From the NCBI RefSeq assembly GCF_030013205.1, contig NZ_CP122648.1: 64,000 nt of DNA. One strand, 5' to 3'. Source of the DNA: Escherichia coli (GTDB lineage Bacteria; Pseudomonadota; Gammaproteobacteria; Enterobacterales; Enterobacteriaceae). This document shows, piece by piece, positions 20,401 through 26,400 of this stretch. The position numbers are program-made. Every line of letters begins with the position of its first letter. Within the stretch, counting starts at the first letter, position 1.

Positions 20401-23400
20401 GGCAGGTTATCCAGCGAATAAGCAACCCTGAAGCAAGCATCGAGAGCTTGCAGGAACGGCGTTTTTGGTTGCAGTGTGAGCGTGCTTACACCTGGCAGCC
20501 GATCTATCAAACATGCGGACGGTTAATGGCCGTGGAGCTATTAACGGTGGTCACGCATCCCTTGAACCCTTCGCAACGCCTGCCGCCGGATCGCTATTTT
20601 ACTGAAATCACCGTCAGCCATCGGATGGAGGTTGTGAAAGAGCAGATTGATTTGCTGGCGCAAAAAGCCGACTTCTTTGTAGAGCACGACCTGCTGGCAT
20701 CGGTCAATATTGATGGCCCTACGCTCATCGCCCTGCGTCAGCAACCAAAAATCCTGCGCCAAATTGAGCGTCTTCCCTGGCTGCGTTTCGAACTGGTGGA
20801 ACACATCCGTCTGCCGAAAGATTCAACCTTTGCCTCGATGTGTGAATTTGGCCCGCTGTGGCTGGATGATTTTGGTACCGGGATGGCAAATTTCTCTGCG
20901 CTAAGTGAAGTGCGTTATGACTACATCAAAATCGCGCGAGAGCTGTTTGTGATGCTGCGTCAGTCGCCGGAAGGACGCACACTCTTTTCTCAGCTTTTAC
21001 ATCTCATGAATCGCTATTGTCGTGGGGTGATCGTCGAGGGCGTAGAAACGCCGGAAGAGTGGCGCGATGTACAGAACTCGCCCGCAATCGCCGCACAAGG
21101 CTGGTTTCTTTCACGCCCGGCACCGATAGAAACGCTGAATACGGCGGTTCTGGCGCTATAAGCTGCCTCATTTTCCGCCTGGCTGGACTATCTTTAGGAC
21201 TGGCACAGGAAGAATATGAGGAAGCGAACGATGAGCAAGGCAGGCAAAATAACCGCTGCGATTTCAGGGGCTTTCTTGTTGTTGATTGTCGTGGCGATCA
21301 TTTTGATTGCAACTTTTGACTGGAATCGACTCAAACCGACCATCAACCAGAAAGTCTCTGCGGAGTTGAATCGTCCGTTCGCTATCCGTGGCGATCTGGG
21401 CGTGGTGTGGGAGCGACAAAAACAAGAAACTGGCTGGCGCAGCTGGGTGCCGTGGCCCCATATACACGCGGAAGACATCATTCTCGGCAACCCACCAGAT
21501 ATTCCCGAAGTCACAATGGTGCATTTGCCACGCGTAGAGGCAACGCTGGCCCCGTTGGCGCTGCTGACCAAAACGGTCTGGCTACCGTGGATCAAACTGG
21601 AAAAGCCCGACGCACGCCTGATTCGCCTCTCAGAAAAGAACAACAACTGGACATTTAATCTCGCCAGCGATGATAACAAAGACGCGAATGCAAAGCCGTC
21701 GGCATGGTCGTTTCGGCTGGATAATATTCTGTTCGATCAAGGGCGGATCGCCATTGATGACAAAATAAGCAAAGCGGATCTGGAAATTTTTGTCGATCCG
21801 TTAGGCAAGCCGCTGCCGTTCAGCGAAGTTACTGGATCGAAAGGTAAAGCGGATAAAGAAAAGGTGGGCGATTACGTTTTTGGCCTGAAGGCGCAGGGAC
21901 GTTATAACGGAGAGCCGCTCACTGGTACGGGAAAAATAGGCGGTATGCTGGCGCTGCGTGGCGAAGGGACGCCGTTTCCGGTACAGGCTGATTTCCGCTC
22001 TGGTAACACCCGTGTTGCTTTTGATGGCGTTGTGAATGACCCAATGAAGATGGGTGGTGTCGATTTACGGCTTAAATTTTCTGGCGATTCGCTGGGTGAT
22101 CTCTATGAACTGACGGGCGTTCTGCTGCCCGATACCCCGCCGTTTGAAACGGATGGTCGGCTGGTAGCGAAAATCGACACTGAAAAATCGTCGGTCTTTG
22201 ATTATCGCGGTTTTAATGGGCGAATTGGCGATAGCGATATCCACGGTTCTTTGGTCTACACCACCGGCAAGCCACGACCAAAACTGGAAGGTGATGTTGA
22301 GTCGCGGCAATTGCGGCTGGCGGACTTGGGACCGTTGATTGGCGTTGATTCCGGGAAAGGAGCTGAAAAGTCGAAACGGTCTGAACAGAAGAAGGGGGAA
22401 AAAAGCGTTCAGCCTGCGGGCAAAGTGCTGCCTTATGACCGCTTCGAAACCGATAAATGGGACGTCATGGATGCCGATGTTCGCTTCAAAGGGCGGCGCA
22501 TTGAGCATGGCAGTAGCCTGCCGATTAGCGATCTTTCTACTCATATCATCCTCAAAAATGCTGACCTGCGCCTGCAACCGCTGAAATTTGGCATGGCGGG
22601 CGGCAGCATTGCGGCGAATATTCATCTGGAAGGTGATAAAAAACCGATGCAAGGGCGGGCAGATATTCAGGCTCGTCGGCTGAAACTGAAAGAACTGATG
22701 CCCGATGTAGAACTGATGCAGAAGACGCTGGGGGAAATGAACGGTGACGCGGAACTACGCGGTAGCGGTAACTCGGTGGCGGCGCTTTTAGGCAACAGTA
22801 ACGGCAACCTGAAACTGTTGATGAATGACGGGCTGGTGAGCCGCAACCTGATGGAGATTGTCGGGCTGAATGTCGGTAACTACATTGTCGGTGCGATATT
22901 TGGTGACGATGAGGTGCGGGTGAACTGTGCGGCGGCGAATCTGGATATTGCCAACGGCGTGGCGCGTCCGCAGATTTTTGCTTTTGATACTGAGAATGCG
23001 TTGATCAATGTTACCGGCACGGCAAGTTTTGCTTCGGAGCAACTGGATTTGACTATCGATCCAGAAAGTAAAGGGATTCGGATTATCACGCTGCGTTCGC
23101 CGCTGTATGTGCGTGGGACATTTAAAAATCCGCAGGCTGGGGTGAAAGCCGGGCCGTTGATTGCCCGTGGTGCTGTTGCGGCGGCACTGGCAACGCTGGT
23201 TACGCCAGCGGCGGCGTTACTGGCGCTGATCTCACCTTCCGAAGGGGAGGCTAATCAGTGTCGGACGATATTGTCGCAGATGAAGAAGTGATGAGGTTGG
23301 ATTGTGTTTGCTGGTGAGTTCGGGAGCAGCGTGCTCCCCTCACCCTAACCCTCTCCCCAAAGGGGCGAGGGGACTGTTTTGTGCGTGTTGAAACAACGAG

Positions 23401-26400
23401 TACCGCTTTTCCGTTCACTTTCTGGGTAGAGGGCCGGGGTGAGGGTGGCAGCCCGCACGATACTTACAACGACTGATGTCGCGTCTCATGGGTCAGCAGC
23501 AGGGCGATTAACGTCAAGCCAGCCATCGCCGCCAGATATAACCCCACCGCACCTAACCCGTAGTTAGTCTGCAACCAGGCTGCGATATACGGCGCAACGG
23601 AAGCCCCGAGAATCGACGCTACGTTGTAAGAGAACGATGCTCCGGTGTAACGCACTTCTGTCGGGAACAGCTCTGGTAACAGCGCGCCCATCGGCCCGAA
23701 GGTCAGTCCCATCAGACTTAACCCCAGCAGCAGGAAGGCAAAAACCAGAATCGGGTTGCCAGAACCGAGTAGCGGGTTAAAGGCGAACAGCGCGAACAGG
23801 ATGATCAGCGTGGTGATGATTACCATGCTTTTACGGCGACCAAAGGCATCAGCCAGTAATCCGGCGACTGGTACCATCACGCCAAAACCAATCACTGCCA
23901 TCATCAGCATCCACAACACTTCGTTACGCGGCAGGCCAAGCCCAACTGGCGCGGCGGCGGTACTAAAGGTCATAGAGTAGACCGTCATGATGTAAAACAG
24001 CGTATAGGTTGCCAGCATGATGAAGGTACCGAGCACCGTGACGCGTACGTGTTTGGTCAGCAGCGTACCCAGCGGGATCTTCACCTGCTTTTTCGCTTTA
24101 GCGACTTTCTCAAACACCGGCGACTCATGCAGCGACACGCGAACATACAGGCCGATAATGACCAGCACCGCCGAGAAGATAAACGGCACACGCCAGCCCC
24201 AGCTCATAAACTGCTCGTCGGTCAGTAGCCAGGAAAGCAGCAAGAAAGTGCCGTTGGCAAAGAAGAAGCCAATCGGTGCGCCCAGCTGCGGGAAGGAGCC
24301 ATACAGTGCACGTTTGCGCGGTGGGGCGTTTTCAGTCGCCAGCAGCGCCGCGCCGCCCCATTCACCGCCTAAGCCCAGACCCTGACCAAATCGAGCCAGC
24401 GCCAGCAGCAGCGGGGCGAAAATACCAATCGTGGCATAGCCCGGCAGCAGACCAATCACCACGGTCGAAATCCCCATCGTTAGCAACGAGGCGACCAGCG
24501 TCGCTTTACGCCCAACGCGATCGCCAAAATGACCAAAAACGGCAGAGCCAATGGGGCGCGCGACGAAGGCGATGGCGAAGGTGGCGAGCGACTGGAGCGT
24601 TGCTGCCGTAGGATCGCCCTGCGGGAAGAAGATATGCGGAAACACAATAACGGCCGCAGTGGCGTAAATGTAAAAGTCGAAAAACTCAATGGCCGTGCCA
24701 ATGAGAGAGGCGACAAGGACTTTATTACGCGAGTTGATCGGCGTGTATTCTTGCTCGTGGTCGAGTGTTGTGGCTGTTGCTTGCATAATCTTTTCTTATT
24801 TTTTGGCTAACGAATAGCCATATTACGCACAGCAAAAGTGATATTTCAATGTGTAACAAATCGCGGAAATGGTCAAAAACCAGGCAAAAAGGGGATAATG
24901 TTTAGGCCAGTGATTTTTCTTCTATGAAATGCTTCACATAATTTTATAAATAGTGGATAAAACTGGTTTCAGGTTAAATAAAAGTTACCAACTGGATTTA
25001 TATGCTGGGGTTATGAGTTGGCATGAAATTGTTTGCTCCTGAAGAGATGTAGTTTCAGGTGGTTATGTGCATGTCATTGCCTGGCCTCTGGCTGGCTTGT
25101 TCCCCCTCACCCTAACCCTCTTCCCGAAGGGGCGAGGGGATCGACCGTGCGTTTATCAGGCATTATAAACCAATGAATTACCGCTGCGTTTTCCCCGGCA
25201 TTCGCGGGTCGTCTTTATATTCGGCGGTGGCAATCCACGCCGCGCAAAACAGCGTCAAACGGGCGAAGAAGTAGAAAAACGCCATCAGCCCCAGCACGGA
25301 ACCAAATGCTGCGCCAGAGGGGGATTTCATCAGCGATGGCAGGGTGTAGGTCATCACGATTTTAATCACTTCAAAACCAATCGCAGCCAGAAATGTTCCA
25401 CGAATCAGGGCTTTTTTGCGCGGACGGTGGCGCGGCAACCGCCAGAAGATCCAGAAGAAAAGCAGATAGTTGGCGAAGATGGAAATCGCCAGGCCAATCA
25501 ACCGCCAAGTCGGTTTCAGCCACTCAATGCTGTTCAGGTGCAGGGCGCTAATAATCATTTGCTGCGCCGAACCGGCAACCGAGGTGATCGAAAGCGTCAC
25601 AATCAGCGCAATCAACAAACCAATCAGCGAAATAAAATCACGCAGATATTTTACCCAGAACTTCTCCTGATCTTGCGGCGAGCGTTCCCAGACATCGCGC
25701 GACTGGGCGCGAATCGCTTCACGCAGGTTACCCATCCAGTTGATGCCGGAATAAAGCGCCACCGCCAGGCCGACAAGCCCTACAGTCGTACGCTGCTGAA
25801 CGGCGGTGTTGATGGTGTTTTTCAACGTGGCGGCTAGCGTCGGATCGCTGATGTTTTGCAGAATTTTGTCGAAGATATCCTGTAGCAACATCGGATGGGA
25901 GGCCAGCACAAAGCCCCCTGCGGCAAACGACACCATCAAAATCGGGATCATCGACAAAAATGAGAAATAGGTGATAGCCGCACCAAACTGGTTACCCAGC
26001 CGATCGTTAAAGCGCTCTGTTGCGCGAATCAGGTGCGCAATAACCGGTTGGCGTTGGACTTTTTCGGCAGTGGTGGTGACGGTTTCCAGCGCCTGGCTAA
26101 CTTTGCCGCCTTTCTCGCTATTATCCAACTGCTTAATCGGCTCGTGCTCCAGATCCTGGGTGGGACGTTTGATCTCGTTTTCCTGCGTCATCCGCTCTTT
26201 TGTCCTTCTGTCGTGGTCATTCTTAAAAAGTATAGTCGGTCAGTCCAGGTGCTCTTTCATTACGCCAGCCAGCCACTGCATAAACAGGTTTACACGCCGG
26301 GAAAGCTCCCGACGCTGCGGATAAACCAGCGAAAGGGAGAGCGGCTCGGCACGGTAGCCAGGTAATACTTCAATAAGCCTCCCGGCACGCAGGGCTTCGC

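What the first reader, a model, noticed from the sequence alone, without database searches (positions are those of the whole stretch)
23321..25141. Dispersed 40-bp GC-rich palindromic repeat in two intergenic regions, one with an inverted partner
ccctcaccctaaccctctccccaaaggggcgaggggac occurs in the yhjG/yhjE convergent gap and again (tccccctcaccctaaccctcttcccgaaggggcgagggga) in the yhjE/yhjD gap. The first copy is accompanied 60 bp downstream by an inverted partial copy (ggggtgagggtgg). The internal palindrome ccctctcccc-aaa-ggggcgaggg could form a stable hairpin. I cannot name the family with confidence; it is not the canonical REP consensus. Its placement at 3' ends of convergent genes suggests a terminator or mRNA-stability role.
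Basis: seen in the sequence. Interest (0 to 1): 0.3.

Follow-up and report, generated by a model that had tools for sequence, protein, structure and literature searches.

The report
Known BoxC intergenic repeat copies
The repeat is real, but it is BoxC (also called PIT or TMECO), a GC-rich triplex-prone element described in the 1990s that occurs about 20 times per E. coli genome, so the finding is ordinary and already explained.

Summary
A 38-nt GC-rich repeat lies at 23336-23373 and again at 25103-25140 (95% identical). An inverted partner lies at 23423-23450. All three sit in intergenic gaps (yhjG/yhjE and yhjE/yhjD).

The family is BoxC, also called PIT element or TMECO (Holder et al. 2015, PMC4666352). 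Copy 1, read on the minus strand, matches the published consensus CCCTCNCCC-N3-6-GGGNGAGGG-N3-GGGNGAGGG exactly. It is identical to three E. coli K-12 copies of "type A mm". Copy 2 is type A with one substitution. The partner is a type B copy that has lost its first block.

5425 of 5426 complete E. coli genomes carry the repeat, with a median of 19 places per genome.

Both loci vary between strains. K-12 has REP elements in both gaps instead. Other genomes keep a full A+B pair, and the short allele's junction is a chimera of two direct repeats, so the partner is a deletion remnant.

The terminator idea is not supported. There is no T-tract call, and published tests found no terminator activity.

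Verdict: already known, low interest.

The parts
23336..23371 (-). Intact BoxC/TMECO copy, type A 'mm' (second loop TTA; one mismatch between block 1 and block 2): CCCTCGCCCCTTTGGGGAGAGGGTTAGGGTGAGGGG
   Evidence: It matches the published consensus exactly at 23337-23371 on the minus strand, with 0 matches in shuffles. It is identical to K-12 Table 1 entries 7, 11 and 15 of PMC4666352. It lies 45 nt after the yhjG stop.
23374..23422 (.). Locus-specific single-copy spacer between the two BoxC arms; not part of the repeat
   Evidence: blastn finds it once per genome, in 1600 of 5426 E. coli genomes and never elsewhere.
23423..23450 (+). Truncated BoxC type B copy (second loop CCG). Blocks 2 and 3 are kept (GGGTAGAGGG CCG GGGTGAGGG, 23424-23445); block 1 and loop 1 are lost to a deletion of 61 nt relative to the B7A long allele (62 nt relative to 18KM2445)
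   Evidence: It is the inverted-repeat arm and has 1 mismatch to GGGNGAGGGNNNGGGNGAGGG. Long alleles in B7A, ETEC-2264, A41 and 18KM2445 carry the full type B at this position. On its own it does not fold (z +0.4).
25103..25138 (-). Slightly degenerate BoxC type A copy: CCCTCGCCCCTTCGGGAAGAGGGTTAGGGTGAGGGG, with one G-to-A change in block 2
   Evidence: It is 95% identical to copy 1, has 1 mismatch in blocks 2-3, and fails the strict consensus. It lies 37 nt after the yhjD stop and 316 nt upstream of the yhjE start.
23295..23463 (.). Strain-variable cassette that fills the yhjG/yhjE convergent gap (BoxC allele, short form)
   Evidence: Alignments with K-12 (REP allele), B7A and 18KM2445 (long BoxC alleles) and 04-00955 (40-nt gap) are. 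Allele spans across 5426 genomes are.
25071..25182 (.). Strain-variable cassette at the yhjD 3' end (BoxC allele); K-12, B7A and 04-00955 carry REP elements here instead
   Evidence: Alignments are. The window-type allele covers at least 80% of the query in 600 of 5426 genomes.

Best explanation
The three elements are copies of BoxC, also called PIT element or TMECO. BoxC is a known, non-coding, dispersed intergenic repeat of E. coli and many other bacteria. It consists of one C-rich block and two G-rich blocks. Copy 1 is intact type A, copy 2 is type A with one substitution, and the 'inverted partner' is the remnant of a type B copy.

Shown here: family membership, copy number, intergenic position, the A+B inverted pairing, presence/absence polymorphism at both loci, and the origin of the partial copy by deletion between two imperfect direct repeats, one of which is block 2 of the type B copy.

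Inferred: the copies most likely have no dedicated function at these genes. They persist as tolerated, structure-prone DNA in promoter-free gene ends. Their main biological effect is to make the surrounding intergenic DNA unstable. The G-rich strand can fold back into a hairpin or triplex when single-stranded, which favours replication slippage and small deletions such as the one seen here. Any protection of mRNA 3' ends by the hairpin would be incidental.
For: Consensus: copy 1 matches exactly and equals K-12 TMECO entries 7, 11 and 15.

Loop types: A (TTA) for both direct copies and B (CCG) for the partner. Holder et al. report that inverted pairs always combine A with B. The K-12 lldD/trmL pair has the same diverging geometry.

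Dispersal: 93,205 places in 5425 of 5426 genomes, median 19, range 1-33. The strain identical to the window at this locus has 25.

Polymorphism: the BoxC allele at yhjG/yhjE is in 1600 of 5426 genomes, and about 130 of those have the short form. The BoxC allele at yhjE/yhjD is in 600 of 5426. K-12 has REP at both sites.

Deletion: I predicted a long progenitor allele and found it at 100% identity in strain 18KM2445. The junction of the ECE204 short allele (TTTCTGGGGGGAGGGC|CGGGG) is an exact chimera of that allele's two direct repeats. The window differs from ECE204 by two further substitutions at the junction, plus one T/C difference just 5' of copy 1 (window 23334).

Published work: the G-rich strand forms a triplex in vitro, with a Tm of 74 C for type A mm. 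TMECO loci are more variable than controls, and palindromic pairs lose parts so that a hairpin remains.
Against: Triplex formation in vivo was not detected by DMS footprinting in the published work, so the structural cause of the instability is unproven. The association between BoxC and variable DNA could run the other way: repeats may accumulate in gaps that are already variable. Here the same gaps hold REP in other strains. K-12 loci show an excess of convergent and 3'-proximal positions, which leaves some room for a 3'-end function. How new copies spread is unknown.
Confidence: 0.85

Rival explanations
1. The copies are functional 3'-end RNA elements. The BoxC hairpin would act as a Rho-independent terminator or as an exonuclease barrier that stabilises the yhjG, yhjE and yhjD mRNAs, as REP elements can.
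For: All three copies are within 13-45 nt of a stop codon. In K-12, 16 of 18 BoxC loci adjoin a gene 3' end, 7 of 18 are convergent gaps, and in tandem gaps 7 of 9 lie nearer the 3' end (my reading of Table S2; statistics). In the BoxC allele the small hairpin GCCGGATGTCTGACATCCGGC seen in other alleles is absent, so BoxC is the only structure in the gap. The whole pair folds at -67 kcal/mol, z -4.5. REP elements, known to act as mRNA 3' stabilisers, occupy the same two gaps in K-12.
Against: The terminator scan finds nothing at any copy, and there is no proper T-run after copy 2 or the partner. Single-copy hairpins barely beat shuffles (z -1.3 to -2.3). Published assays found no promoter or terminator activity and no effect on RNA polymerase (Hoyne & Maher 2002, as cited). 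Orientation relative to the nearest transcript is mixed, both in K-12 and here. A crude cross-phylum test showed no bias towards convergent gaps or 3' ends. Roughly 70% (yhjG/yhjE gap) to 89% (yhjE/yhjD gap) of E. coli genomes do without BoxC at these loci.
Confidence: 0.1
2. The 115-nt unit 23332-23450 is a miniature transposable element with terminal inverted repeats that moves as a whole.
For: It has 28-nt imperfect inverted arms and a very stable overall fold.
Against: The 49-nt interior is single-copy and locus-specific in every genome that has it. The arms occur alone elsewhere, as copy 2 does. The right arm is a deletion remnant. No target-site duplication can be defined, because the whole gap differs between alleles.
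Confidence: 0.02
3. The repeat is a local duplication or a chance match confined to these two gaps.
For: Only three copies occur in this 64-kb window.
Against: There are 93,205 places in 5425 genomes, with a median of 19 per genome. Shuffles give an expectation of 0.01. The pattern also occurs in many phyla.
Confidence: 0.01
4. The repeat is a divergent REP/BIME element mobilised by a RAYT transposase.
For: It has the same kind of location, and K-12 has true REPs in exactly these gaps.
Against: It shows no similarity to the REP sequences in the K-12 alleles, and the alignments break down across the elements. It has a three-block architecture instead of a single REP stem. The literature treats BoxC and PU-BIME as separate families (PMC2267715).
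Confidence: 0.02

Closest known systems
BoxC, also called PIT element or TMECO (Bergler 1992; Bachellier 1999; Hoyne et al. 2000; Holder et al. 2015, PMC4666352)
   Same: The three-block consensus, type A and type B second loops, A+B inverted pairing, intergenic position, about 20 copies per E. coli genome, and strain-to-strain variability of the loci all match. Copy 1 is base-for-base identical to three K-12 copies.
   Different: Nothing essential differs. These two loci are not among the 23 K-12 copies, because K-12 has REP there. Copy 2 has one substitution in block 2. The partner lacks block 1 after a deletion of 61 nt relative to B7A (62 nt relative to 18KM2445).
REP / PU / BIME elements
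   Same: They are short GC-rich palindromic intergenic repeats near gene 3' ends. They occupy the very same two gaps in K-12 and most other E. coli genomes.
   Different: The sequence is unrelated. REP has a single imperfect stem rather than three blocks, is mobilised by RAYT transposases, and has documented mRNA-stabilising activity. None of this has been shown for BoxC.
Rho-independent (intrinsic) terminators
   Same: Both have a GC-rich stem-loop just downstream of a stop codon.
   Different: No qualifying T-tract was found. The pairing is ambiguous, because the single block on each strand (the G block on the + strand, the C block on the - strand) can pair with either of the two complementary blocks. 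Published terminator assays were negative.
H-DNA and other triplex-forming mirror repeats linked to genome instability
   Same: Both have purine-rich blocks capable of G.G:C and T.A:T triads and are associated with deletions and rearrangements.
   Different: BoxC is modelled as an intrastrand, double fold-back triplex of a single strand, not as H-DNA within a duplex. It has not been detected in vivo.

Membership tests
BoxC / PIT / TMECO | Sequence consensus CCCTCNCCC-N3-6-GGGNGAGGG-N3-GGGNGAGGG | tested here: met
   Copy 1 matches exactly at 23337-23371 on the minus strand, with 0 matches in 100 shuffles, and equals Table 1 entries 7, 11 and 15. Copy 2 and the partner each have 1 mismatch in blocks 2-3. 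The partner lacks block 1.
BoxC / PIT / TMECO | Second loop TTA (type A) or CCG-like (type B); inverted pairs combine one A with one B | tested here: met
   Copies 1 and 2 have TTA and the partner has CCG. The pair at 23336-23450 is A(-) plus B(+), as in the K-12 lldD/trmL pair.
BoxC / PIT / TMECO | Many dispersed copies per E. coli genome (23 strict-consensus copies in K-12) | tested here: met
   The median is 19 places per genome, range 1-33. K-12 records have 21, and the strain identical at this locus has 25.
BoxC / PIT / TMECO | Always intergenic | tested here: met
   All three copies lie outside ORFs and outside annotated CDS. In a crude cross-phylum test, 37% of matches lie in called ORFs against 86% coding sequence overall.
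BoxC / PIT / TMECO | Loci are unusually variable between strains, with partial deletions at palindromic pairs | tested here: met
   There are four allele classes at yhjG/yhjE and at least four at yhjE/yhjD. The deletion junction is a chimera of two direct repeats.
BoxC / PIT / TMECO | The G-rich strand folds into an intrastrand purine-motif triplex in vitro | not testable with these tools
   The folding tools model only Watson-Crick hairpins. The published oligonucleotide 'type A mm' has the same 36-nt sequence as copy 1, with a Tm of 74 C and NMR imino signals.
REP / BIME | REP (PU) sequence of the kind seen in the K-12 alleles (GCCGGATGCGGCGTGAACGCCTTATCCGGCCTAC) | tested here: not met
   The window's gaps do not align with the REP-bearing K-12 gaps across the elements.
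Intrinsic terminator | GC-rich stem with a 3-8 nt loop, followed directly by a T-rich tract | tested here: not met
   There are no calls at 23330-23460 or 25095-25145 on either strand. Copy 1 is followed by ACTGTTTTGTG on the plus strand, which is at best a weak tract.
MITE with terminal inverted repeats | The whole unit, interior included, is repeated at several loci | tested here: not met
   The interior 23374-23422 is single-copy.
Any Rfam RNA family | A covariance-model match at or near the gathering score | tested here: not met
   Nothing reaches the gathering score at these coordinates. The permissive scan gives only chance hits of 17-22 bits to eukaryotic miRNA and antizyme models.

The most novel reading that the evidence does not exclude
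BoxC and REP/BIME may be interchangeable occupants of the same 3'-proximal intergenic 'slots'. Both gaps here carry BoxC in a minority of E. coli genomes and REP in the rest, and the BoxC allele lacks the small hairpin present in the other alleles. This could mean that BoxC supplies the same 3'-end RNA-protecting structure as REP. It could also mean that both families are directed to the same structured target sites by an unrecognised mobilisation mechanism.
Probability: 0.08. Interest if true: 0.45.

Novelty: already known. Interest (0 to 1): 0.08.

Why it matters
It matters little for discovery. The element was described in 1992, surveyed in 1999-2000 and characterised biophysically in 2015. 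The useful outcome is correct labelling: BoxC, not an unnamed family and not a terminator. The locus also gives a clean worked example of BoxC-associated intergenic instability. It shows four alternative alleles of one 170-bp gap, and a deletion of about 62 nt whose progenitor and product both survive in public genomes.

Tried and rejected
1. Rfam at gathering and permissive thresholds gave no real match.
2. The consensus scan for promoters and terminators found nothing at the elements.
3. I tested whether the 115-nt palindrome is a composite mobile unit. It is not, because the interior is single-copy.
4. I tested whether the pair shares its spacer with the K-12 lldD/trmL pair. It does not; only the BoxC arms align.
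5. I ran a crude cross-phylum test of position, using greedy longest-ORF calls on 120 loci from the genome scan. It showed depletion from ORFs but no bias towards convergent gaps or 3' ends. The ORF calls are rough (over-long 5' ends, shadow ORFs in GC-rich genomes), so I treat this result as weak.
6. A literature search for work after 2015 on BoxC, TMECO or PIT found nothing beyond Holder et al. in the held library.
7. I could not examine outgroup species at these two gaps.
8. I could not list all 25 positions in the matching strain, because the search tool reports only one place per record.
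Full report
**1. The observation**

The repeat finder reports a 38-nt direct repeat, CCCCTCACCCTAACCCTCTCCCCAAAGGGGCGAGGGGA, at 23336-23373. A second copy lies at 25103-25140 with two substitutions (95% identity). It also reports an inverted repeat with arms 23332-23359 and 23423-23450. The arms are 28 nt, 79% complementary, and 63 nt apart.

The 18-mer CCCTCACCCTAACCCTCT has three matches in the window at up to 3 mismatches, against 0.01 expected from shuffles. No ORF of 60 aa or more overlaps the elements.

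- Copy 1 lies 45 nt after the yhjG stop.
- The partner ends 13 nt before the yhjE stop.
- Copy 2 lies 37 nt after the yhjD stop and 316 nt upstream of the yhjE start.

**2. What it is**

A full-text search for the core blocks led to Holder et al. 2015 (PMC4666352). That paper treats exactly this sequence under the names BoxC (1990s), PIT element (Hoyne et al. 2000) and TMECO. Its consensus is CCCTCNCCC-N3-6-GGGNGAGGG-N3-GGGNGAGGG.

- **Copy 1.** The consensus matches the window once, at 23337-23371 on the minus strand, with no match in shuffles. The 36-mer CCCTCGCCCCTTTGGGGAGAGGGTTAGGGTGAGGGG is identical to K-12 copies 7, 11 and 15 in their Table 1, which they call "type A mm".
- **Copy 2.** This is the same type, with one G-to-A change in the central block.
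- **The partner.** It has the CCG second loop of type B and keeps only blocks 2 and 3.

Holder et al. report that K-12 has five inverted pairs and that each combines one type A with one type B. The pair here does the same. Its diverging geometry matches the K-12 lldD/trmL pair, although only the BoxC arms align and the spacers do not. A second paper lists BoxC as a known E. coli family distinct from PU-BIME and ERIC (PMC2267715). Rfam has no model for it.

**3.

A 42-nt query around copy 1 finds 93,205 places in 5425 of 5426 complete E. coli genomes. The median is 19 per genome and the range is 1-33. K-12 records have 21, and strain CFSAN018748, which is identical to the window here, has 25. 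The motif is therefore a genuine dispersed family.

That scan returned 120 stretches from very different phyla, often as inverted pairs. In those matches block 2 almost always has A and block 3 mostly has T at the variable position. That combination fits the T.A:T triad of a purine-motif triplex. This agrees with the paper's count of 3610 copies in 262 genomes.

**4. The surroundings: both loci vary between strains**

K-12 has no BoxC in either gap. Both of its gaps hold REP (PU) elements, and the alignments break down exactly across the elements.

*The yhjG/yhjE gap.* The single-copy spacer 23374-23422 is present in 1600 of 5426 genomes, always once. A 572-nt query spanning the gap sorts the genomes into four spans:

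| Span (nt) | Allele | Frequency |
|---|---|---|
| 572 | The window's short BoxC allele | About 130 genomes |
| 631-633 | Long BoxC allele | The rest of the 1600 |
| 578-581 | REP allele | The majority |
| 440 | 40-nt gap holding only the small hairpin GCCGGATGTCTGACATCCGGC | A divergent lineage |

The BoxC alleles lack that small hairpin.

*The yhjE/yhjD gap.* The window's BoxC allele is in 600 of 5426 genomes. The others carry REP alleles of three lengths.

**5. Origin of the "inverted partial copy"**

Long alleles (B7A, ETEC-2264, A41) carry a complete type B copy, CCCTCTCCCTTTCAGGGAGAGGGCTGGGGTGAGGG, where the window has only blocks 2-3. They are 61 nt longer.

These long alleles contain two imperfect direct repeats: TTTCTGGGGGAGGGCTG and TTTCAGGGAGAGGGCTG. 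They match at 15 of 17 positions, and the second repeat is block 2 of the type B copy.

I wrote out the progenitor that the window's flanking SNPs predicted. It was found at 100% identity in strain 18KM2445. In the alignment, the short allele of strain ECE204 has the junction TTTCTGGGGGGAGGGC|CGGGG. That junction is exactly the left repeat of 18KM2445 joined to the sequence that follows its right repeat. The window differs from ECE204 by two further substitutions at the junction, plus one T/C difference just 5' of copy 1 (window 23334).

The partner is therefore a remnant left by a deletion of about 62 nt between direct repeats. It is not an independent partial insertion. An insertion origin would have had to build a canonical type B copy in register with a pre-existing block 3, which is far less likely (inference). 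Holder et al. describe this class of event at palindromic pairs as the "palindrome effect".

**6. How it most likely works**

[quoted passage not shown] Loci with these elements are more variable than control intergenic regions. An earlier study found no promoter or terminator activity and no effect on RNA polymerase.

*Shown here.* The predicted single-copy hairpins are only marginally better than composition-matched shuffles (RNA z -1.3 to -2.3; DNA z -1.0 to -2.3). The partner alone does not fold. Only the whole pair is exceptional, at -67 kcal/mol and z -4.5. The terminator scan calls nothing at the elements.

*Inferred.* These copies are tolerated, structure-prone passengers in promoter-free gene ends. 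Their main effect is local instability through slippage and deletion when the strand is single-stranded during replication.

**7. The terminator or stability idea**

The idea is not baseless. From the paper's Table S2 I count 7 convergent, 9 tandem and 2 divergent loci among the 18 K-12 loci. In the tandem gaps the element lies nearer the upstream gene's 3' end in 7 cases, with 2 near-ties. The convergent excess gives p of about 0.01 if convergent gaps make up 14.5% of all gaps. That baseline is from memory, and the p-value rises to 0.14 at a 25% baseline.

Four points weigh against a dedicated role:

- Orientation relative to the nearest transcript is mixed.
- The published assays were negative.
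- Most E. coli genomes lack the elements at these loci.
- My crude cross-phylum test shows no such positional bias.

Selection against insertions in promoter regions explains the K-12 pattern equally well. I put the 3'-end function at about 10%.

**8. Verdict**

The family is BoxC / PIT / TMECO, which is already known. The interpretation as a repeat family is right, and the terminator reading is unsupported. Interest is low. The only small addition is a fully documented allele series at this locus, in which REP and BoxC occupy the same gaps in different strains and a deletion intermediate is still extant.

Noticed in passing
window 23295-23463 and 25071-25182, compared with L001 (K-12) 6110-6290 and 4377-4786: In K-12 and most E. 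coli genomes both gaps hold REP/BIME elements exactly where this strain holds BoxC. The two repeat families are alternative, non-homologous alleles of the same intergenic slots.
   Followed up: partly
L125 (strain 04-00955) 2401-2440: A divergent lineage (93% identity) has only a 40-nt yhjG/yhjE gap, holding a single hairpin GCCGGATGTCTGACATCCGGC. K-12 keeps this hairpin next to its REPs. The BoxC alleles lack it. It may be the ancestral state.
   Followed up: partly
window 25049/25050: Relative to K-12, B7A and 04-00955, the window lacks a 20-nt segment (GCTGAAGAGGCTCTGGGGAC in K-12) about 50 nt from copy 2. This is a further small indel in the same variable gap.
   Followed up: no
E. coli genome collection: BoxC copy number varies more than tenfold between complete E. 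coli genomes, from 1 to 33 places. O157:H7 records have about 15, and several human isolates have only 2-6. There are also 365 places on plasmids.
   Followed up: no
L005-L124: The strict BoxC/TMECO pattern occurs in very distant phyla, including Pseudomonas, Sphingomonas, Planctomycetota, Chloroflexota, Akkermansia and a Bifidobacterium MAG. It often occurs as inverted pairs. The asymmetry is conserved: block 2 is GGGAGAGGG in 90% of matches and block 3 is GGGTGAGGG in 79%.
   Followed up: partly
window 8725-8790, 9208-9273, 9691-9756 (minus strand): There are three Rfam rdlD antitoxin matches spaced exactly 483 nt apart. This looks like a tandem triplication of an ldr/rdl type I toxin-antitoxin unit at this locus.
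   Followed up: no
window 337-413, 448-581, 614-749 (plus strand): A tRNA-Pro(CGG) gene is followed by two tandem RtT RNA matches (101 and 96 bits).
   Followed up: no
window 50216-50247 (plus strand): A match to the shuA/chuA 5' UTR thermoregulator shows that the strain carries the chu haem-uptake island, so it is not K-12-like. The records that match the window best are swine ETEC and O139:H1 isolates.
   Followed up: no
window 60477-60560 and 60711-60794 (minus strand): There are two adjacent Rfam AgrB antisense RNA matches, 234 nt apart.
   Followed up: no
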